A DNA stretch of 64,000 nt from Escherichia coli (GTDB lineage Bacteria > Pseudomonadota > Gammaproteobacteria > Enterobacterales > Enterobacteriaceae): NCBI RefSeq assembly GCF_030013595.1, contig NZ_CP122768.1; one strand, written 5' to 3'. Below the pieces are notes generated by a model. That model saw nothing but the letters and a program-made list of their open reading frames with translations, did not search any database and had not been told where the DNA came from. The position numbers were made by a program, and so were the translations under genes. Below, one piece after another: positions 3,939 through 27,883 of this stretch; positions within the stretch are counted from its first letter, which is position 1; each line of letters begins with the position of its first letter.

Positions 3939-4283
3939 GCGGCAAAGAGGAATGTGGGGACAGGAGAAAATCAGGTACCGGATATGAACAGCTTTGGTAA
4001 CTCATTGACCGCCAATGGATACCAGAAATTACCTGGGGGGATGATTATTCAATGGGGGAGTTTTTCTGTCTCACCAACCGGAGGAAGTGTTGGAACAGTT
4101 GATATAACATTACCTGTAGCTTTCCCTGCTGCTTGTCGTTCGGTAAACGCTCTTATTTCAACTAATGATCCTTCTGCCCGTTCTGTGGGCTTTGATATTG
4201 GAAGTACCAACAGAACTAAAATCAGATTTACTTACACTTCTGCTACAACAAATTCAATTTACTGGATGGCTGTGGGGTATTAA
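3939..4283 (+). CDS. alternative tail-fibre C-terminal segment (Sv'-like), silent in this orientation
   Basis: In-frame coding begins at the crossover site; followed by a tail-fibre-assembly gene; upstream part of track ORF 3885.. spans the recombination site. Confidence 0.6.
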   Translation, partial: AAKRNVGTGENQVPDMNSFGNSLTANGYQKLPGGMIIQWGSFSVSPTGGSVGTVDITLPVAFPAACRSVNALISTNDPSARSVGFDIGSTNRTKIRFTYTSATTNSIYWMAVGY

Positions 4284-4285
4284 CT

Positions 4286-4717
4286 ATGGAAAAGACATAT
4301 TATTTTAATCCCTCTGATTCGGGATTTTATATTTCACCAGATAGCCAAACCATTCCTGAGAACGCTACGAAAATAAACTTTACTATTTATTCTGAGTTCG
4401 CAGGAGTTGCATGGCCTGATGGTAAAATACTTGGTTCAGATAAAAATGGTTTTCCAGCATGGCAGGATGCGCCACCACTTACCAGCGAAGAATTAATCTC
4501 AATCGCTGAATCAAATAAACAGCGATTAGTTAATCAGGCCAACGAATACATGAACAGTAAACAATGGCCTGGTAAAGCGGCGATTGGTCGTCTGAAAGGT
4601 GAGGAACTGGCGCAATATAATTTGTGGCTGGATTATCTGGACGCACTGGAACTGGTCGATACTTCCAGTGCGCCAGATATTGAATGGCCTACTCCTCCGG
4701 CAGTTCAGGCCAGATGA
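4286..4717 (+). CDS. tail fibre assembly protein (alternative, U'-like)
   Basis: 143 aa; C-terminal [12 protein letters not shown] motif typical of Tfa proteins; inside invertible segment. Confidence 0.75.
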   Translation: MEKTYYFNPSDSGFYISPDSQTIPENATKINFTIYSEFAGVAWPDGKILGSDKNGFPAWQDAPPLTSEELISIAESNKQRLVNQANEYMNSKQWPGKAAIGRLKGEELAQYNLWLDYLDALELVDTSSAPDIEWPTPPAVQAR

Positions 4718-19910: not shown

Positions 19911-21129
19911 TGGCGTTATCCTTCTGCTTACCGGCTTTACTGCCATCGGAGGGCTTCGTGGTCATGTTCATCGGTGTGAGATAGACATCACCACCGGGAC
20001 GCGGATTCATATCTTCCAGGTCGCGGCAGTCATTGGGAGAGTAAATTCCCCAGTTGATCCCGGTGGCGTAGGCTTCAAAACGGGACTTCATATCCCCGCG
20101 CAGTAACGCCCCGGCGTTAAATTTGGCGTAATAAACACCCTGCTTACTTTTTCGTACCAGTCCGGTGTTGATCCGCTGCTCAATGCGGGTCAGATACGGC
20201 ACCAGTGAATAGTTGATAAATCCGAGCCCCAGCTCTTCGATATTGTTGAAGGTGGCGCGATCGGTGTTCTGCACCATGTGCAATGGCACACGGAACAGAC
20301 GACAAATTTCTTCAAGCTGAAACTTGCGGGTTTCCAGGAACTGGCTGTCCTCTGCGTTCAACGCCATCGACTTCCAGTCCAGCCCCATCTCAAGGATCAT
20401 CGGGCGGTGAGCATTGCCAAGCCCGGTGTGACGCTCCTCAAAATCTTTCTTCAGGCGCTCATAAGCCTGATCCGACAGCGTCTGCTCTGTACGCAACACA
20501 CCCGACGTCACCGCGCCATTGCTGAACAGTCTGGCCCCGTGCTCTTCGGTCGCTGCCGCCAGCGATATTGCCTCGCGGGCATAGGCGATGGGATTCAGCC
20601 CCACCAGTCCGTCCAGCGTCAGCGTGCGCACATGCCAGATATCCTCCTGGCTCAGTACATCCGTGGAGCCATCCGGGAATGTGACCTGATAGATCGGCTC
20701 CCAGCTACTGTTAAGCTTCGGTACCACACAGCCGGGATCGACGGGCAGCAGTTCAGCCACTTCGCCAAATGCTTTCACTTTGTAGGCGTAAAAGTTTCCC
20801 CGCAGGCACAGACAGGTGACCACCAGCTCCCAGAACTCCTGCGGCGTCATATAGTCATTGGGATGCGTGGAGATCAGCTTATGCAGACGTTCGCCAGTGG
20901 CTCTCTGCTTCAGGCTGCCGTTCAGGTGATACAGGTTGCAGGGCAACATCCCGACCGACTCCGCCAGCACCCTGACACAGGAAAAAACCGCCGTCAGTCG
21001 CATGGCCCGCTGGCTGCTGATCTGCTTTCCGGTATAGGTGTCGTAGGACAACCCGATAGCATCCGCCAGCTCTGCTGGCGTGGTCACCGGTGCGTCACTT
21101 TTTCGTTGAAATAATCCCGAAAAGAACAC
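19888..21129 (-). CDS. portal protein
   Basis: 413 aa; between terminase and protease. Confidence 0.9.
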   Translation of the reverse strand: MFFSGLFQRKSDAPVTTPAELADAIGLSYDTYTGKQISSQRAMRLTAVFSCVRVLAESVGMLPCNLYHLNGSLKQRATGERLHKLISTHPNDYMTPQEFWELVVTCLCLRGNFYAYKVKAFGEVAELLPVDPGCVVPKLNSSWEPIYQVTFPDGSTDVLSQEDIWHVRTLTLDGLVGLNPIAYAREAISLAAATEEHGARLFSNGAVTSGVLRTEQTLSDQAYERLKKDFEERHTGLGNAHRPMILEMGLDWKSMALNAEDSQFLETRKFQLEEICRLFRVPLHMVQNTDRATFNNIEELGLGFINYSLVPYLTRIEQRINTGLVRKSKQGVYYAKFNAGALLRGDMKSRFEAYATGINWGIYSPNDCRDLEDMNPRPGGDVYLTPMNMTTKPSDGSKAGKQKDNANADETTS

Positions 21130-21322: not shown

Positions 21323-23056
21323 TTAAAGCGAGCGGATCCCATAGGACTCAATGTGGTCAGACAACGTGTCTTCTTTCTCGTACAGCATGGCTCTGCCAAC
21401 CGCCATAATCAGCGCAACTGCACCATCGATTTTGTTTTCCGCCTGCTCTTTGACGGGCTTCACCACATCATCGTTACCCGGAATGGTTTTGCCGACCACG
21501 TTGCCGATACACCAGGTCATGATGGGATTGCCATCATGATGAAAGCGCCCCGATTCAATTGCCGCTTCCAGCTCTTTCATCGGGTCGGACATGTTGGTGT
21601 AGTTCTGAATGATAGTGATGGGGTTCAGGTCTTCATCAGCCAGGTCATGTGACAGCCCGGTCGCCCCGAAGGGGTCGATGGGTGACTCACTGACCGGGCT
21701 GATTTTGTTCGCCGCTTTGGCCTCCTCGAGGATGTAGCGATAATCCACCTCCGCACCATCGGTAACGGTCAGAACGCCCATTACCACCCATTTCTGAAAG
21801 CGTTCGGCTGTCCGTCGATCTTCATTTTTCTCGACACTGTACACCGTGTCATACGGTACCCAGAAACGCGGGGCCACACTGTAGTAATGCGTTTTACCGT
21901 CAATCTCGCGGGTATAAAGTCGCGCCATGCTGTTCATATCCAGCTTACGCGCCAGGTCAAAGGCCAGAATGCACGGCTGCCCCTCGAACTGCTCAAGGGT
22001 CAGTGATTTATCCTCGCAGCTCTGCCAGCTCACCAGGTTGAAATACGCCGAACGCGCCGACACCCAGATATTGAGGTGCTTTGTTTTAAAGACGTTTGCC
22101 AGACGGGCGTTATTTTTCGCACGCTGCTGCTGACTTAACAAAAATTCGCGATAAACCGACACGCCAATATTCGGGTTAGCTTTTTCCAGCACCTGCGGGT
22201 CGGTCCAGTCATCGCCTTCGTCAACGGTATAGATGATCCCGAACAGTTCATCGTTGGGTACCGACCCGTTGAGCATCTCGATAACTTCCCGCCGCTTGTC
22301 GTAGCACGGCCCCTCAATGTTGTACCCGGCAGTAGTAATGGCCCACATCAGTGGCTGACGTCGCGCCCCCATCCCGGTAAGCATCGTGGTGTAAAGCGCA
22401 TCGGTGGCGTGCTCGTGATATTCATCCACCACCGCACAGTGGGGTGATGATCCATCACCGGGGTTACCGATCAGCGGTTCAAACCGCGCGCCATCCTCCG
22501 GACGGTTCATGTTTGAGGCGTTAACCTCAATCCCGAACGCTTCCGTCAGCATGGGCGTGCGTTTACACATCAGTCGCGCCGGGCGAAAGACTTCCCACGC
22601 CTGTTTCTCTGTCGTGGCACCGGAATACACTTCCGCGCCAAACTCGTTATCACAGGCAAAACAATACAGGGCAACACCGGCAGAGATTGCTGATTTGCCG
22701 TTCTTACGGGGGATTTCGGTATACACCTCCCGGAAGCGGCGCAACCGGGTGCCTTTATTGACCCAGCCAAACGCACAGCAGATCACAAAGAGCTGCCACG
22801 GCTCCAGCGTGATGGGCATCCTCTTGAATGCCCACTCACCCTTGGTGTGCGGCAACAGCTGAATAAATTTGGCGGCCCGTTCAGCCAGGTCCTTGTCGAA
22901 GCGGTAACGAAACGACTTACTTTTTTCCGCCATCAGGTCATCAAGATGGCGCTGGCAGGCCTGAATCACAAACTGGCAGGCCACAATCTTTCCGCGAACG
23001 ACATCCCGGGCATACTGATTGGCAGCATTTACGTTGGGGTAAGATTTCCGGCTCAT
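21323..23056 (-). CDS. terminase large subunit
   Basis: 577 aa; ATPase-nuclease family resemblance. Confidence 0.9.
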
Positions 23057-23556
23057 GATTCGATGATTTTCAGAAACGGGTTAGTAGCTTTCTTCTGCCC
23101 CGCCAGGCCAATCAGACGCTGGCGGCTGCTGGGGTCGAGTCCGAGCATTGCCCCCGTGCTGCTCATCTCGGACTCCTGTTCTTTTTTGGCGGTCAGCTCA
23201 GGATTTTTGACCATACCGCCCATTGCACCGGTGATGGTGTTGCCCTGTCTGGCAATATTTTTCACGGCACGTCGCCAGAACTCATAGGCCACACACCACC
23301 GCTCAAGCACCGCGAGGTCAGTCACGCACAGCAGGCCCTGACCGCAAAGTTCTTTAGTTGTCAGTTGCCACATGATCGTGGCGAGAGGGAGATCTTCTTC
23401 AGCGAACCACTCCGGTGGCTCAACACCTTTGATGGGCGTAAAAACAGGTTCATCTTTATTCAGGGCTCGCTTGCCGGGGTTTCCGGCCAGCGCCTTGCGC
23501 GCCGTTGGCTTGGGGCGACGCCCGGAACGCCCCGCCGTTCCAGCCATATGCGGCAC
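23053..23556 (-). CDS. terminase small subunit (P27 family)
   Basis: 167 aa; 4-nt overlap with large subunit. Confidence 0.8.
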
Positions 23557-23672: not shown

Positions 23673-24023
23673 TCACTTTAGCCGTTCACGGGCCGTCTTC
23701 GCCTTATGGCACGGCCAGCACAGGCTCTGCAGATTACTGTCTGCATCGGTGCCGCCATGCGCTTTAGGGATGATGTGGTCAACGGTTTTCGCCTCACGCA
23801 CCACACCAGCACGCAGACATAACTGACACAGGCCTTTGTCACGCTTCAATATGCGCGCGCGGATACTGTCCCACTTCGAACCGTAGCCGCGCTGATGACG
23901 GGATTGCCCCGGCTTGTATTGTTTCCAGCCTTCGTTTTTGTGGCTTTCGCAGTAGCCTGACGGGTCTGTAGTGGTATTACGGCAGCCGCGAACGCGGCAG
24001 GCTTTTGGGATTCGTGATGGCAT
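23673..24023 (-). CDS. HNH endonuclease (packaging-associated)
   Basis: HNH motif DHIIPKAHGGTDADSNLQSLCWPCHKAKT plus Cys-rich zinc ribbon; ATG 24021-24023 with GGAG 5 nt upstream. Confidence 0.85.
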   Translation of the reverse strand: MPSRIPKACRVRGCRNTTTDPSGYCESHKNEGWKQYKPGQSRHQRGYGSKWDSIRARILKRDKGLCQLCLRAGVVREAKTVDHIIPKAHGGTDADSNLQSLCWPCHKAKTARERLK

Positions 24024-24149
24024 ATGTACTCCAATGAAGAAGCCACCGACATAGCCTCCTCCATTCATCGTGAAACTATTTTCATCTACGCAGTCATGAA
24101 TTCTTTGTAGAGTTGTGATCAATACAACTCACTAATGGAGAGGCTTGTC

Positions 24150-24171
24150 CAACACGTTGGACAAGTTTCCT
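24150..24171. repeat. perfect 10-bp inverted repeat with 2-bp spacer (CTTGTCCAAC-AC-GTTGGACAAG), then T-rich tract
   Basis: Read directly; could be an operator or an orphan + strand terminator. Confidence 0.4.
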
Positions 24172-24246
24172 GTTTGATTTACTGGACACTATAGAAGGAC
24201 AGAATGCCTTCCTCACTCGAATAACATTAATTAAGGAGGTTCAACA

Positions 24247-25575
24247 CTGATGAATCCCCTAATGATTTTGGTAAAAATCATTAAGTTAAGGTGGATACAC
24301 ATCTTGTCATATGATCAAATGGTTTCGCGAAAAATCAATAATCAGACAACAAGATGTGCGAACTCGATATTTTACACGACTCTCTTTACCAATTCTGCCC
24401 CGAATTACACTTAAAACGACTCAACAGCTTAACGTTGGCTTGCCACGCATTACTTGACTGTAAAACTCTCACTCTTACCGAACTTGGCCGTAACCTGCCA
24501 ACCAAAGCGAGAACAAAACATAACATCAAACGAATCGACCGATTGTTAGGTAATCGTCACCTCCACAAAGAGCGACTCGCTGTATACCGTTGGCATGCTA
24601 GCTTTATCTGTTCGGGCAATACGATGCCCATTGTACTTGTTGACTGGTCTGATATTCGTGAGCAAAAACGACTTATGGTATTGCGAGCTTCAGTCGCACT
24701 ACACGGTCGTTCTGTTACTCTTTATGAGAAAGCGTTCCCGCTTTCAGAGCAATGTTCAAAGAAAGCTCATGACCAATTTCTAGCCGACCTTGCGAGCATT
24801 CTACCGAGTAACACCACACCGCTCATTGTCAGTGATGCTGGCTTTAAAGTGCCATGGTATAAATCCGTTGAGAAGCTGGGTTGGTACTGGTTAAGTCGAG
24901 TAAGAGGAAAAGTACAATATGCAGACCTAGGAGCGGAAAACTGGAAACCTATCAGCAACTTACATGATATGTCATCTAGTCACTCAAAGACTTTAGGCTA
25001 TAAGAGGCTGACTAAAAGCAATCCAATCTCATGCCAAATTCTATTGTATAAATCTCGCTCTAAAGGCCGAAAAAATCAGCGCTCGACACGGACTCATTGT
25101 CACCACCCGTCACCTAAAATCTACTCAGCGTCGGCAAAGGAGCCATGGGTTCTAGCAACTAACTTACCTGTTGAAATTCGAACACCCAAACAACTTGTTA
25201 ATATCTATTCGAAGCGAATGCAGATTGAAGAAACCTTCCGAGACTTGAAAAGTCCTGCCTACGGACTAGGCCTACGCCATAGCCGAACGAGCAGCTCAGA
25301 GCGTTTTGATATCATGCTGCTAATCGCCCTGATGCTTCAACTAACATGTTGGCTTGCGGGCGTTCATGCTCAGAAACAAGGTTGGGACAAGCACTTCCAG
25401 GCTAACACAGTCAGAAATCGAAACGTACTCTCAACAGTTCGCTTAGGCATGGAAGTTTTGCGGCATTCTGGCTACACAATAACAAGGGAAGACTTACTCG
25501 TGGCTGCAACCCTACTAGCTCAAAATTTATTCACACATGGTTACGCTTTGGGGAAATTATGAGGGGATCTCTCAG
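24247..25575 (+). mobile_element. IS10, complete 1329-bp copy
   Basis: Outside end CTGATGAATCCCCTAATGATTTTGG at 24247, inside end CTGAGAGATCCCCTCA (reverse complement) at 25560-25575; flanks GGTTCAACA and TATTAAGCG differ, so no 9-bp duplication. Confidence 0.95.
24354..25562 (+). CDS. IS10 transposase
   Basis: 402 aa beginning MCELDILHDSLYQFCPELHLKRLNS, matches recalled IS10 transposase over its length. Confidence 0.97.
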   Translation: MCELDILHDSLYQFCPELHLKRLNSLTLACHALLDCKTLTLTELGRNLPTKARTKHNIKRIDRLLGNRHLHKERLAVYRWHASFICSGNTMPIVLVDWSDIREQKRLMVLRASVALHGRSVTLYEKAFPLSEQCSKKAHDQFLADLASILPSNTTPLIVSDAGFKVPWYKSVEKLGWYWLSRVRGKVQYADLGAENWKPISNLHDMSSSHSKTLGYKRLTKSNPISCQILLYKSRSKGRKNQRSTRTHCHHPSPKIYSASAKEPWVLATNLPVEIRTPKQLVNIYSKRMQIEETFRDLKSPAYGLGLRHSRTSSSERFDIMLLIALMLQLTCWLAGVHAQKQGWDKHFQANTVRNRNVLSTVRLGMEVLRHSGYTITREDLLVAATLLAQNLFTHGYALGKL

Positions 25576-25604
25576 TATTAAGCGTCAATGAGCGTCTGGA
25601 AAGA

Positions 25605-26519
25605 ATGAAAGGCAGGCGCTCAGACATTACGGTGACAGAATGGCTTGATAAATATATTTCTATCCAGGAGGACAGGCTGCAACATAATGAACTAAGACCC
25701 AACTCCTATCGGCAAAAAGGCAAACCCATTCGTCTTTTCCGTGAGCATTGTGGAATGCAACACCTCAAGGATATTACCGCACTTGATATTGCCGAAATAA
25801 TTGATGCTGTAAAGGCTGAAGGTCATAACAGGATGGCGCAAGTCGTGAGAATGGTGTTGATCGACGTCTTCAAAGAAGCACAACACGCAGGACATGTTCC
25901 GCCAGGATTTAACCCAGCGCAGGCAACAAAACAACCGCGAAATCGAGTAAACCGCCAAAGATTGTCACTGCCCGAATGGCAGGCAATATTTGAAAGCGTA
26001 AGCAGACGGCAGCCCTATTTAAAATGCGGCATGCTACTTGCTCTTGTTACTGGACAACGTTTAGGCGATATCTGCAATTTGAAATTCTCTGATATATGGG
26101 ACGACATGTTGCACATTACTCAGGAAAAAACCGGTTCAAAACTTGCTATTCCGCTTAACCTGAAATGCGATGCTCTGAATATTACCCTTCGTGAAGTTAT
26201 ATCTCAGTGCAGGGATGCTGTTGTTAGTAAATATCTGGTCCATTACCGTCACACTACCTCTCAAGCAAACAGAGGAGACCAGGTTTCTGCAAATACTCTG
26301 ACAACGGCTTTTAAAAAGGCCCGGGAAAAATGTGGCATAAAATGGGAGCAAGGAACTGCGCCCACATTTCATGAGCAGCGATCTCTGTCAGAACGGTTAT
26401 ATCGGGAACAGGGTCTGGATACGCAAAAGTTGTTAGGCCATAAATCCAGAAAAATGACCGACCGATACAATGATGATCGTGGTAAAGACTGGATTATCGT
26501 AGATATCAAAACAGCATAG
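25605..26519 (+). pseudogene. lambda-family tyrosine integrase lacking the N-terminal arm-binding domain
   Basis: 304 aa aligning to lambda Int from about residue 65; catalytic motifs (HxxR, LLGH, DRY) intact; frame closes at a stop inside the IS10 end. Confidence 0.8.
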
Positions 26520-26632: not shown

Positions 26633-27883
26633 TTACATGTTCTTGATGATTGCATCACCAAACTCGCTGCATTTCAGCAGTTTAGCACCTTCCATCAGAC
26701 GTTCGAAGTCATAGGTTACGGTCTTGGCGTTGATTGCGCCTTCCATACCTTTAACAATCAAGTCTGCGGCTTCAGTCCAGCCCATATGGCGCAGCATCAT
26801 CTCAGCGGAGAGAATAATAGAGCCTGGGTTTACTTTGTCCTGACCGGCATATTTCGGCGCAGTACCGTGGGTGGCTTCAAACAGGGCGCATTCGTCACCG
26901 ATGTTTGCGCCTGGGGCGATACCGATACCGCCGACCTGTGCAGCCAGAGCGTCAGAAATGTAGTCACCGTTCAGGTTCATACAGGCGATAACATCATATT
27001 CAGCCGGACGCAGCAGGATCTGTTGCAGGAATGCGTCAGCAATCACGTCTTTAATGACGATCTCTTTGCCGGTATTCGGGTTTTTAACTTTCAGCCACGG
27101 GCCGCCGTCGATCAGTTCACCGCCAAACTCTTCACGCGCCAGCTGGTAGCCCCAGTCTTTAAACGCGCCTTCGGTGAACTTCATGATGTTGCCTTTGTGC
27201 ACCAGGGTCACAGAGTCACGATCGTTAGCAATTGCGTATTCGATCGCTGCACGAACCAGACGTTTGGTGCCTTCTTCCGAACACGGCTTAATACCGATAC
27301 CGCAATGTTCCGGGAAGCGAATTTTCTTCACGCCCATCTCTTCACGCAGGAATTTAATCACTTTCTCGGCGTCGGCAGAGTCAGCTTTCCATTCGATACC
27401 CGCATAAATGTCTTCCGAGTTTTCACGGAAGATAACCATATCGGTCAGTTCAGGGTGTTTAACCGGGCTTGGAGTGCCCTGATAGTAACGTACCGGACGC
27501 AGGCAGATGTAGAGATCCAGTTCCTGACGCAGGGCAACGTTCAGAGAGCGAATACCGCCACCAACCGGAGTGGTCAGCGGACCTTTAATGGCAACGCGAT
27601 ATTCACGAATCAGATCAAGGGTTTCAGCAGGCAGCCAGACATCCTGACCATAAACCTGTGTGGATTTTTCACCGGTGTAAATTTCCATCCAGGAGATTTT
27701 ACGCTCGCCTTTATAGGCTTTCTCGACTGCAGCGTCGACCACTTTCAGCATGGCTGGGGTTACATCTACACCGATTCCATCACCTTCAATGTAAGGGATA
27801 ATCGGATTTTCAGGAACGTTGAGTTTGCCGTTTTGCAGGGTGATCTTCTTGCCTTGTGCCGGAACAACTACTTTACTTTCCAT
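26633..27883 (-). CDS. icd: isocitrate dehydrogenase (NADP)
   Basis: 416 aa, [45 protein letters not shown]; full-length match to recalled E. coli Icd. Confidence 0.97.

What the first reader, a model, noticed from the sequence alone, without database searches (positions are those of the whole stretch)
24097..24246. Phage RNA polymerase promoter look-alikes, a perfect palindrome and a strong RBS abutting IS10
Within 150 bp left of IS10 the + strand carries AATACAACTCACTAATGGAGAG (17/22 to the T7 promoter), a perfect 10-bp inverted repeat, ATTTACTGGACACTATAGAAGGA (exact 13-mer GACACTATAGAAG of the SP6 promoter), then TTAATTAAGGAGGT. Neither motif equals a vector consensus and no single-subunit RNA polymerase gene is in the window, so function is unproven, but a 13/13 match is unlikely by chance. 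They may be relics of the deleted early region or part of an engineered or foreign segment.
Basis: seen in the sequence. Interest (0 to 1): 0.35.

Follow-up and report, generated by a model that had tools for sequence, protein, structure and literature searches.

The report
Virulent-phage promoter trap in prophage
A dormant virus in this E. coli-type chromosome carries, side by side, the genuine transcription start signals of two families of killer phages; in intact copies these are wired to a tiny membrane-peptide gene, which looks like an alarm only an invader's own RNA polymerase could trigger, but here IS10 has cut the peptide gene off.

Summary
Window 24120-24142 is a Berlinvirus (T7-supergroup) type promoter. 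It scores 32.7 bits on a matrix built from 17 real promoters; the next best site in the 64 kb scores 7.7. Window 24177-24199 is a perfect K1E/K1-5 (Vectrevirus, SP6-group) promoter. The palindrome between them is a repeated element of SP6-like phage genomes. The segment is neither engineered nor an early-region relic. It is native intergenic DNA between the HNH/terminase genes and the lysis genes of an SfIV/HK97-like prophage, and it occurs in 631 of 5,426 complete E. coli genomes. In intact copies the strong ribosome-binding site starts a 40-aa hydrophobic ORF. Klebsiella temperate phages carry an analogous cassette at the same position, with Klebsiella-specific promoters (Berlin type, Kp7 type, Drulisvirus type) and 36-38-aa hydrophobic peptides under purifying selection. 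My best explanation (inferred, untested) is an infection-triggered cassette: the invading phage's RNA polymerase transcribes a small membrane-active peptide that aborts or blocks the infection. In this window IS10 (24247-25575) removed the payload from the second base of its start codon onward. I found no description of this in the searchable literature.

The parts
24120..24142 (+). Berlinvirus/T7-supergroup type promoter, positions -17 to +6 (CAATACAACTCACTAATGGAGAG); predicted start G at 24137
   Evidence: It scores 32.7 bits on a matrix from 17 PhiV-1 promoters, against 13.4-40.6 for the real promoters scored leave-one-out. The SfIV version matches the PhiV-1 promoter between genes 16 and 17 at 27/28. 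The -12..-8 CAACT variant also occurs in the PhiV-1 promoter at 13533. This is the least diverse non-coding block in 41 prophage haplotypes (pi 0.010, lowest 3.3% of 23-nt windows).
24144..24165 (.). Perfect palindrome CTTGTCCAAC-AC-GTTGGACAAG; the stem can extend to 24140-24169 (13 pairs, then a U-rich tail). It copies a repeated element of SP6-like (Molineuxvirinae) phage genomes.
   Evidence: The repeat was confirmed. As RNA the stem folds at -18.6 kcal/mol with z = -3.0, and the simple scan flags it as terminator-like. GTCCAACACGTTGGAC occurs 7-9 times in each of UAB_Phi78, KpnP_VR702 and Kp7, and K1E carries the GTCTCACGTGTGAGAC form. Prophage variants switch between exactly these two forms.
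24177..24199 (+). Vectrevirus (K1E/K1-5) type promoter of the SP6 group, -17 to +6 (ATTTACTGGACACTATAGAAGGA); predicted start G at 24194
   Evidence: It is identical over 25 nt, flanks included, to the K1E promoter at 13932 and equals the consensus of 11 K1E promoters. It matches dozens of Vectrevirus genomes at 28/29 and scores 29.7 bits on a Zindervirus/VR702 matrix.
24194..24232 (+). Leader of the predicted transcript, with a possible 5' hairpin GAAGG(24194-24198)/CCTTC(24207-24211)
   Evidence: The leader is conserved in all variants. Its fold energy is not significant, so the hairpin is only a possibility.
24233..24240 (+). Strong Shine-Dalgarno sequence AAGGAGGT. In intact relatives it lies 6 nt before the ATG of a 40-aa ORF.
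   Evidence: In L001 the sequence reads AAGGAGGTTCAACATG and the ORF runs 4207-4329. The SD-to-ATG block has pi 0.012. The ORF is intact and exactly 40 aa in about 99 loci.
24246..24246 (+). Last base of the cassette: the A of the payload start codon, which is the breakpoint with IS10
   Evidence: The alignment of the window to seven intact relatives ends here. The BLAST match of 24040-24247 stops at 24246.
24247..25575 (+). IS10 (1,329 bp). Its transposase ORF at 24354-25562 has the same orientation as the promoters. There is no 9-bp target duplication (GGTTCAACA versus TATTAAGCG), so a deletion removed the payload, lysis genes, early region and the 5' end of int.
   Evidence: Based. Matches are annotated as an IS4-like ISVsa5 family transposase.
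23673..24023 (-). HNH endonuclease gene of the prophage packaging module, followed leftward by the small (23053-23556) and large (21323-23056) terminase genes
   Evidence: Pfam assigns HNH, Terminase_4 and TerL. RefSeq annotation of homologues agrees.
25605..26519 (+). Integrase ORF (304 aa) beginning 30 bp to the right of IS10, probably truncated at its 5' end (inferred from its position; no full-length homologue was compared); icd follows at 26633-27883 on the minus strand
   Evidence: Pfam assigns Phage_integrase and Iso_dh.

Best explanation
The 150 bp are the control region of a prophage-borne cassette whose payload is missing in this window. Intact cassettes have a fixed order. First comes a genuine-type promoter for the RNA polymerase of T7-supergroup (Berlinvirus-like) phages. 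Next is a palindrome copied from SP6-like phages, then a genuine-type promoter for SP6-group polymerases (K1E/K1-5 type in this window). A short leader and a strong ribosome-binding site follow, and then a 40-aa hydrophobic ORF that ends inside the antisense of the last codons of the spanin gene Rz1.

The proposed mechanism is as follows. In a lysogen the cassette is silent, because the host polymerase has no promoter there. When a virulent T7-like or SP6-like phage infects and makes its own polymerase, that enzyme transcribes the cassette. The small peptide is made in quantity and acts on the inner membrane, for example by depolarisation, premature lysis or interference with holins. The infection is aborted or blocked, which protects sister lysogens.

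What is shown here is the sequence identity to real promoters, the architecture and its conservation, host-matched promoter sets in two bacterial genera, purifying selection on the Klebsiella peptides, and the absence of a polymerase gene in the window. Transcription by the invader's polymerase, silence in the lysogen, membrane activity and a defence phenotype are all inferred.

In this window IS10 replaced everything after the first base of the start codon. The cassette is therefore disarmed, and the promoters now point into IS10.
For: (1) The motifs match genuine promoters, flanks included. The SfIV cassette matches the Berlinvirus PhiV-1 gene-17 promoter at 27/28 and a Zindervirus UAB_Phi78 promoter at 31/32. 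The window matches K1E at 25/25. Matrix scores fall within the range of real promoters and far above background.

(2) The palindrome is also a phage element, and prophage variants carry exactly the two forms that distinguish the phage genera: CCAAC/GTTGG and CTCAC/GTGAG.

(3) The elements are in tandem, in the same orientation, directly upstream of a conserved strong SD and a short ORF. That ORF is intact and 40 aa long in about 99 loci.

(4) The same architecture sits at the same genomic position in Klebsiella temperate phages, with Klebsiella-relevant promoters. One is a Berlin-type promoter. One is a perfect Kp7-type promoter, whose consensus occurs 13 times in Kp7. One is the Drulisvirus motif TTAATGTTACAGGAGTAGGA, present 4 times in RCIP0044, with the perfect copy just after its RNA polymerase gene.

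(5) The Klebsiella payloads are 36-38-aa peptides with one strongly hydrophobic stretch (GRAVY 0.65-1.69). Their pN/pS is 0.34-0.62 at pS up to 0.70. They are absent from virulent phages.

(6) In E. coli the C-terminal 20 codons show 3 synonymous and 0 non-synonymous changes, and the same 3 changes are non-synonymous in the antisense Rz1 frame.

(7) The promoter cores are less diverse than their flanks: pi is 0.010 and 0.050, against 0.07-0.13 in the flanks.

(8) No sigma-70-like promoter was detected around the cassette, and no phage-type polymerase gene is in the window.

(9) The cassette is frequent: 631 of 5,426 complete E. coli genomes.
Against: There is no experimental evidence at any step.

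Some prophage variants carry changes at positions that are invariant in real promoters: GACAGTATAGG, CACTACAG, and CACTTTAG in all SfIV-type copies. The diversity of the SP6-type core is not unusually low (21st percentile). Two variant forms, ACTTGAC and AATGGAC..GAGG, match no known Autographiviridae contig.

The N-terminal half of the E. coli peptide has pN/pS of about 2, so its exact sequence is not conserved. The E. coli peptide is only moderately hydrophobic (GRAVY 0.45-0.73). No known toxin or defence family matches any payload.

The sigma-70 scan is insensitive: it also missed the promoter that iss must have. The hairpin with its U-rich tail could terminate part of the transcripts from the first promoter. 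From general knowledge, T7-like phages degrade host DNA, which limits the time window for expression. No perfect SP6/K1E-type promoter was found in 100,044 species-representative genomes, so the phenomenon may be narrow.
Confidence: 0.55

Rival explanations
1. The promoters are functional and trans-activated, but the small ORF is not the point. The invader's processive polymerase would read on into downstream DNA. That DNA includes iss/bor, which lies in the same orientation in many E. coli prophages. It also includes the antisense of the lysis and late-regulatory genes. In a lambdoid layout the leftward immunity and exclusion genes would lie further on; this last step is inferred from general knowledge of lambda and was not checked in these prophages.
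For: iss lies about 180 bp downstream of the ORF on the same strand in L001, L004, L006 and L007. No terminator-like site lies between the ORF and iss. Other same-strand accessory genes lie further on: DUF3800 in L001 and gp48/gp49 in SfIV. The N-terminal half of the E. coli peptide is not conserved.
Against: The strong SD and start codon are conserved, and an ORF of 36-40 aa is kept in both genera. The Klebsiella peptides are under purifying selection. SfIV-type and Klebsiella cassettes have no iss, and there the transcript immediately runs antisense into Rz1.
Confidence: 0.15
2. The cassette is a neutral relic: short pieces of virulent-phage DNA captured by illegitimate or short-homology recombination during mixed infections and carried along without function.
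For: Similarity extends a few bases beyond the promoter cores, as direct copying would give. Some variants show decay at critical positions. Two variants match no known phage.
Against: This would require independent capture of only regulatory elements, with no coding DNA, from two or three phage subfamilies. They would have to land in the same orientation and order in front of an SD and small ORF, and this would have to happen separately in E. coli and Klebsiella phages with host-matched promoter sets. The promoter cores are less diverse than the flanks. The cassette persists in 11.6% of complete E. coli genomes.
Confidence: 0.12
3. The cassette acts as a DNA-level decoy. The promoters and palindrome bind and divert the invader's polymerase, or an unknown palindrome-binding factor, and no product is needed.
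For: The cassette copies the palindrome as well as the promoters, in the same palindrome-spacer-promoter arrangement seen in the phages.
Against: A single chromosomal copy cannot titrate an abundantly made polymerase (general reasoning). The idea does not explain the conserved SD and ORF or the purifying selection on the peptides.
Confidence: 0.06
4. The cassette is parasitic. The promoters recruit the invader's transcription-primed replication or packaging machinery to amplify or mobilise prophage DNA.
For: From general knowledge, T7 promoters serve as replication origins in T7. The cassette lies near cos and the terminase genes.
Against: The promoters point away from cos and the packaging genes. 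No concatemer-junction or packaging signal of the virulent phages was found: only the promoters and the palindrome are shared.
Confidence: 0.03
5. The segment is an engineered vector remnant or a chance resemblance.
For: T7 and SP6 promoters occur together in cloning vectors (general knowledge).
Against: The sequences equal wild Berlinvirus and K1E promoters, not the vector consensus. They are co-directional. The segment is in 631 natural genomes from humans, animals and water, and in phage SfIV. The chance expectation is 0.00.
Confidence: 0.01

Closest known systems
Phage T7-type expression unit (class III promoter, 5' stem-loop leader, strong SD, as before gene 10) and its SP6/K1E equivalents
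   Same: The promoter sequences fall within the natural range of the phage families. The transcript would start with a hairpin. A strong SD follows within about 40-100 nt.
   Different: The unit lies in a temperate siphovirus-type prophage that has no single-subunit polymerase. It combines promoters of different specificity groups in tandem, which no single virulent phage needs.
hok/sok exclusion of phage T4, and type I toxins in general (own knowledge: Pecota and Wood 1996)
   Same: A very small hydrophobic peptide would be the effector, made only once a virulent phage has taken over the cell.
   Different: In hok/sok the trigger is the decay of an antisense RNA after host transcription is shut off. 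Here the proposed trigger is direct transcription by the invader's polymerase. No antisense antitoxin RNA, known RNA family or host promoter was found, and no sequence relation to known toxin families was found.
Trans-activation between a resident element and an infecting phage: P2 Ogr acting on P4 late promoters, and helper-induced PICI/SaPI islands (own knowledge)
   Same: A resident mobile element carries control sequences that respond to the transcription apparatus or regulators of a different, infecting phage.
   Different: Those elements use the helper in order to spread, and they respond to activators of the host polymerase or to antirepressors. Here the promoters belong to a foreign polymerase and the payload is one tiny ORF, not a life-cycle programme.
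Engineered phage-triggered suicide cassettes, such as the lactococcal phi31 promoter fused to a lethal restriction cassette (Djordjevic et al. 1997) and T7-promoter-driven toxic genes (own knowledge)
   Same: The design principle is the same: a phage-specific promoter drives a harmful gene, so that only infected cells express it.
   Different: Those are man-made. This would be a natural, widespread version with several specificities.
Lambdoid 'morons' at the junction of the lysis cassette and the packaging genes, such as bor/iss
   Same: It occupies the same insertion site and the same orientation, opposite to the late operon, and iss sits right next to it in many copies.
   Different: As I recall, morons typically carry their own host-type promoter and terminator and are expressed in the lysogen. 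No host-type promoter was detected here.

Membership tests
T7-supergroup (Studiervirinae, Berlinvirus-type) RNA polymerase promoter | A 23-bp consensus from -17 to +6, matched as well as genuine promoters match it | tested here: met
   The site scores 32.7 bits, against 13.4-40.6 (median about 32) for 17 PhiV-1 promoters scored leave-one-out. The SfIV version matches the PhiV-1 gene-17 promoter at 27/28.
T7-supergroup (Studiervirinae, Berlinvirus-type) RNA polymerase promoter | A cognate single-subunit RNA polymerase encoded by the same genome | tested here: not met
   tblastn with three phage polymerases against the window gave nothing (best E 0.004). The annotated stretches of homologous prophages that I fetched (4.6-8.2 kb around the cassette) list no polymerase gene. 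It is therefore an orphan promoter that could act only in trans.
T7-supergroup (Studiervirinae, Berlinvirus-type) RNA polymerase promoter | Specific initiation by the cognate polymerase | not testable with these tools
   This needs in vitro transcription or 5'-end mapping during infection.
SP6-group (Molineuxvirinae, Vectrevirus K1E/K1-5 type) promoter | The consensus ATTTACTGGACACTATAGAAG | tested here: met
   The window is identical over 25 nt to the K1E promoter at 13932 and equals the consensus of 11 K1E promoters. It matches many Vectrevirus genomes at 28/29.
SP6-group (Molineuxvirinae, Vectrevirus K1E/K1-5 type) promoter | Specific initiation by the cognate polymerase | not testable with these tools
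   This needs an experiment.
Cloning-vector T7/SP6 promoter pair | Exact vector consensus sequences in convergent orientation around a polylinker, within vector backbone | tested here: not met
   The T7 consensus has no match within 3 mismatches. The SP6 consensus differs at 3 positions. Both motifs are on the + strand, about 57 bp apart. The flanks are prophage DNA found in 631 genomes.
Type I toxin-antitoxin system | A small hydrophobic toxin peptide of under about 60 aa | tested here: inconclusive
   Intact relatives encode 36-40-aa peptides with a hydrophobic stretch. Toxicity is untested, and no known toxin family matches. In the window the ORF is deleted.
Type I toxin-antitoxin system | A cis- or trans-encoded antisense RNA antitoxin with its own promoter | tested here: not met
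   No Rfam family matched in L001, L002 or L111. No sigma-70-like promoter was found on either strand, although that scan is weak.
Abortive-infection / superinfection-exclusion system | Reduced phage yield or plating, with or without death of the infected cell | not testable with these tools
   This is a phenotype. No PADLOC model matches the payload.
Intrinsic (hairpin plus U-tract) terminator | A stable GC-containing stem followed by a run of U | tested here: inconclusive
   The stem has 13 pairs with 5 G-C, followed by the tail CUGUUUGAUU, and folds at -18.6 kcal/mol. The same palindrome in the phages often lacks a U-tract.

The most novel reading that the evidence does not exclude
Temperate phages of Enterobacteriaceae carry arrays of decoy-like but functional promoters, each specific for the RNA polymerase of a different group of virulent Autographiviridae. 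These arrays act as infection sensors that make the invader itself transcribe a small membrane-active peptide. This would be a natural antiviral (or inter-phage competition) principle in which recognition is encoded in a promoter rather than in a sensor protein or guide RNA.
Probability: 0.5. Interest if true: 0.92.

Novelty: categorically new. Interest (0 to 1): 0.8.

Why it matters
If the model is right, recognition of a virus is encoded in about 23 bp of DNA per virus family, with no sensor protein. As far as I know, this sensing logic has not been described for natural anti-phage systems.

It would also explain part of the resistance of lysogens to T7-like, SP6-like and KP34-like phages, which are the workhorses of phage therapy against E. 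coli and Klebsiella. The promoter set in a strain's prophages could then predict which therapeutic phages will fail.

It would add a family of very small, unannotated effector peptides; RefSeq annotates no gene at this spot in the E. coli genomes sampled.

It would set up a readable arms race between the specificity loops of phage polymerases and the promoter variants in prophages.

The model is directly testable with commercial or easily purified polymerases and with existing phage collections.

Tried and rejected
1. I searched for the exact IS10 junction in 5,426 complete E. coli genomes. No record covers it, so the source strain stays unidentified.

2. I scanned 100,044 species-representative genomes for near-perfect SP6/K1E-type promoters (ATTTASKKGACACTWTAGAAG) and found 0 hits. 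The hoped-for catalogue of other cassettes was not obtained.

3. I tested whether the variants ACTTGACACTATAGAAG and AATGGACACTATAGAGG equal promoters of other phages. In IMG/VR they occur only in the prophage cassettes, apart from one chance hit inside a coding region, L110.

4. I compared the payload peptides with Pfam, PHROGs, NCBIfam and PADLOC and found nothing.

5. I searched Rfam on three intact loci and found nothing relevant.

6. I folded the leaders to look for a switch that would hide the SD in read-through transcripts. There was no significant structure beyond the palindrome, so I dropped the idea.

7. I first read the CCAAC/GTTGG to CTCAC/GTGAG change as RNA covariation. I revised that when both forms turned out to be the genus-specific versions of the phage palindrome.

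8. I first thought motif 5 of the Klebsiella cassette preceded the Drulisvirus polymerase gene. The annotation shows it follows that gene.

9. Nine full-text literature searches and two papers read (the SfIV genome paper and the E. coli pangenome defence screen) gave no description of such promoters in prophages. That library is incomplete, so this is not proof of novelty.

Full report
**1. What is in the window**

- AATACAACTCACTAATGGAGAG is at 24121-24142.
- The perfect 10-bp inverted repeat has arms at 24144-24153 and 24156-24165.
- ATTTACTGGACACTATAGAAGGA is at 24177-24199.
- TTAATTAAGGAGGT is at 24227-24240.

IS10 runs from 24247 to 25575. The ungapped match of the first motif to the T7 consensus is 15/22, not 17/22.

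The surrounding genes are those of an HK97/SfIV-like prophage, all on the minus strand:
- HNH endonuclease, 23673-24023
- small terminase, 23053-23556
- large terminase, 21323-23056
- portal, 19888-21129

To the right of IS10 lie an integrase ORF (25605-26519, 304 aa, apparently truncated at its 5' end) and icd (26633-27883). The sequences flanking IS10, GGTTCAACA and TATTAAGCG, are not a 9-bp target duplication. IS10 therefore marks a deletion that removed everything between the cassette and int. No phage-type RNA polymerase gene is in the window.

**2. The motifs are not chance and not vector look-alikes**

The SP6 consensus with up to 3 mismatches hits only this site, against 0.00 expected. 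I built position matrices from 17 promoters of the Berlinvirus PhiV-1 and from 20 promoters of the SP6-like phages UAB_Phi78 and KpnP_VR702.

| Site | Score (bits) | Real promoters, leave-one-out | Next best in the window, both strands |
|---|---|---|---|
| 24116-24142 (T7-type) | 32.7 | 13.4-40.6 | 7.7 |
| 24175-24201 (SP6-type) | 29.7 | 19.4-40.7 | 15.6 |

The 'AAT' before the start, which makes the first motif look like a poor T7 promoter, is the normal form in Berlinvirus (…ACTCACTAATGGGA…). The CAACT at -12 to -8 also occurs in a natural PhiV-1 promoter.

The second motif is not an imperfect SP6 promoter. It is a perfect promoter of the E. coli phages K1E and K1-5 (Vectrevirus). The 25 nt TGATTTACTGGACACTATAGAAGGA are identical to the K1E promoter at 13932, and ATTTACTGGACACTATAGAAG is the consensus of 11 K1E promoters.

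In Shigella phage SfIV the homologous segment carries two other close matches. One is aatcaatacgactcactaatggggagg, 27/28 to the PhiV-1 promoter between genes 16 and 17. The other is tacttgatttaggtgacactttagaaggacag, 31/32 to a UAB_Phi78 promoter.

**3. The palindrome is a phage element too**

GTCCAACACGTTGGAC and close variants occur 7-9 times in each of UAB_Phi78, KpnP_VR702 and Kp7. Most copies are in intergenic DNA just before promoters or ribosome-binding sites. K1E carries GTCTCAC(A/G)TGTGAGAC in the same kind of place.

The window's palindrome-spacer-promoter stretch is about 85% identical to KpnP_VR702 14418-14470. Among prophage variants the palindrome switches between exactly these two forms. 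I first read that switch as RNA covariation, but it is better described as tracking the two phage versions. The function of the element in the phages is unknown to me.

**4. Where the segment belongs**

The 208 bp left of IS10 occur in 553 complete E. coli genomes. The longer intact region occurs in 631 of 5,426, nearly always on the chromosome. It also occurs in five E. coli phage records and in SfIV. It always lies between the HNH gene and the end of the lysis cassette, and the promoters point away from HNH.

In intact copies AAGGAGGT is followed after 6 nt by the ATG of a 40-aa ORF, for example MFHSTNHQAVIMAASVCATDLFRFTLSLIHFYLTGSPLSF. RefSeq does not annotate it. The last 18 codons overlap, in antisense and in the same triplet phase, the 3' end of Rz1. 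In prophages that have gained the iss/bor gene they overlap a remnant of Rz1 instead.

In the window IS10 follows the first base of that ATG. The payload is gone and the promoters now face the IS10 transposase gene.

**5. Variation and selection in the E. coli cassette**

An IMG/VR scan with the leader sequence gave 94 stretches and 24 distinct 160-mers. The ORF is open and exactly 40 aa in about 99 loci, with 20 peptide variants.

Nucleotide diversity (pi) in 41 haplotypes is as follows.

| Block | pi |
|---|---|
| T7-type core | 0.010 (lowest 3.3% of 23-nt windows) |
| SD-to-ATG | 0.012 |
| SP6-type core | 0.050 (21st percentile) |
| Non-coding flanks | 0.07-0.13 |
| HNH coding sequence | 0.149 |

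The SP6-type core varies mainly at -12 to -10, the positions that differ between phage genera. Some variants also carry changes at positions invariant in real promoters, and two forms match no known phage. So the SP6-type promoters in part of the population may be decaying or tuned to unsampled phages.

Between the two main clades the N-terminal 20 codons differ by 15 non-synonymous and 2 synonymous changes. The C-terminal 20 codons differ by 3 synonymous changes only, and those three are non-synonymous for the antisense Rz1 frame. This suggests the small ORF's frame is the constrained one there.

**6. An independent second case in Klebsiella**

Just past the Rz1 stop, in the same antisense orientation, five Klebsiella temperate phages carry an analogous cassette: Kp4864-1, PDP110P1, RCIP0114, ST13-OXA48phi12.5 and ST101-KPC2phi6.1. 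About 40 IMG/VR contigs carry it as well. Its order is:
- a palindrome;
- a T7-supergroup promoter, such as TTAATGCGACTCACTATAGAGAGAGG, whose nearest matches are Berlinvirus-group promoters;
- the GTCCAAC…GTTGGAC palindrome;
- AATAGTGGCGAGTATAGAAC, a perfect copy of the promoter consensus that occurs 13 times in the Klebsiella phage Kp7 (Molineuxvirinae);
- TTAATGTTAC(NN)GAGTAGGA, which occurs four times on the coding strand of the KP34-like Drulisvirus RCIP0044, with the perfect copy between the stop of the polymerase gene and the next gene;
- a further unexplained motif;
- a strong SD;
- an ORF of 36-38 aa.

The peptides fall into three families. Each has one strongly hydrophobic stretch (GRAVY 0.65-1.69). 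Their pN/pS is 0.34-0.62 at synonymous divergence up to 0.70, so they are real genes under purifying selection.

The family I searched by tblastn (MLEVLNSLAP…) is present only in temperate phages. No payload family matches any Pfam, NCBIfam or PADLOC model.

The architecture is thus conserved across genera, while the promoter set matches the virulent phages of each host:
- E. coli: K1E type plus Berlin type
- SfIV: SP6 type plus Berlin type
- Klebsiella: Kp7 type, Drulisvirus type and Berlin type

**7. Interpretation**

The simplest reading is a cassette that only an infecting Autographiviridae phage can switch on, through its own polymerase, to produce a small membrane-active peptide. Supporting details are the lack of a detectable host-type promoter (weak evidence) and the resemblance of the layout to a phage late expression unit.

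The effect of the peptide is inferred only from its size and hydrophobicity, and from the precedent of small membrane toxins in phage exclusion (hok/sok against T4, own knowledge). Possible effects are depolarisation, premature lysis, or interference with the invader's holin or DNA entry.

The rival readings are listed with their weights in the Rival explanations section. They are read-through into iss or further genes, a neutral recombination relic, a DNA decoy, and parasitic replication. Engineered origin and chance are excluded.

**8. Novelty**

Nine full-text searches found no description of prophage-borne promoters for virulent-phage polymerases. Neither did the SfIV genome paper (PMC3851460) or the E. 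coli pangenome defence screen (PMC9519451). The library is incomplete, so this is absence of evidence.

The nearest concepts are P2/P4 trans-activation, hok/sok exclusion, and man-made phage-triggered suicide cassettes.

**9. Verdict for this window**

The finding is a real, non-random feature: the disarmed control region of such a cassette. The mechanism is inferred and could be tested with simple experiments.

Noticed in passing
window 24247-25575, with flanks 24238-24246 and 25576-25584: IS10 has no 9-bp target duplication (GGTTCAACA versus TATTAAGCG). It joins the first base of the cassette's start codon to a position 30 bp before an integrase ORF that is followed by icd. An IS10-associated deletion therefore seems to have removed the lysis, regulatory, replication and immunity genes of this e14-site prophage. 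No complete RefSeq E. coli genome has this junction.
   Followed up: partly
window 24250-24414 (+): Because of the insertion, the cassette's strong SD (24233-24240) now lies 9 nt before an ATG inside the IS10 outside end, which opens a fortuitous 54-aa ORF. The IS10 transposase gene (24354-25562) is co-oriented with the two phage promoters, so an infecting phage's polymerase would read into it.
   Followed up: no
L013 (UAB_Phi78), L014 (KpnP_VR702), L015 (K1E), L118 (Kp7): SP6-like phages carry 7-9 copies of a genus-specific 16-20-bp palindrome: GTCCAACACGTTGGAC, or GTCTCACGTGTGAGAC in K1E. Most copies lie before promoters or ribosome-binding sites, but some lie inside the polymerase, primase and ligase genes. 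I do not know its function.
   Followed up: partly
L111 600-960; L114-L117 about 660-1080: Klebsiella temperate phages have an analogous cassette with three verified promoter types and a further motif, AAGTTACACAA(T/G)AGAA, just before the SD. That motif matches nothing in Kp7 or in the Drulisvirus RCIP0044.
   Followed up: partly
L001 4510-4803; also L004, L006, L007: In many E. coli copies the iss/bor lipoprotein gene lies about 180 bp downstream of the small ORF on the same strand. A 3' remnant of Rz1 is left between them, and a second Rz gene lies beyond iss. This looks like a recombination that brought in a lambda-type Rz-bor segment.
   Followed up: no
L009 1203-1397 (-): One E. coli prophage (strain EC17CM13) has an extra 64-aa gene inserted between HNH and the cassette.
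   Followed up: no
L070: In one IMG/VR variant unrelated sequence replaces the T7-type promoter and the left arm of the palindrome, with the breakpoint inside the palindrome. The SP6-type promoter, the SD and the start of the ORF are kept.
   Followed up: no
L015 38777-39310; L014 38525-39058: In K1E and KpnP_VR702 the large terminase gene is annotated as split in two by a homing endonuclease gene.
   Followed up: no
L001 3985-4335, used as a query against E. coli genomes (H129, NZ_CP104788.1): One genome holds only the SD-plus-ORF part of the cassette (query positions 199-351, 98% identity), next to a gene annotated as phage tail sheath. The payload may therefore also occur in another phage context without these promoters.
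   Followed up: no
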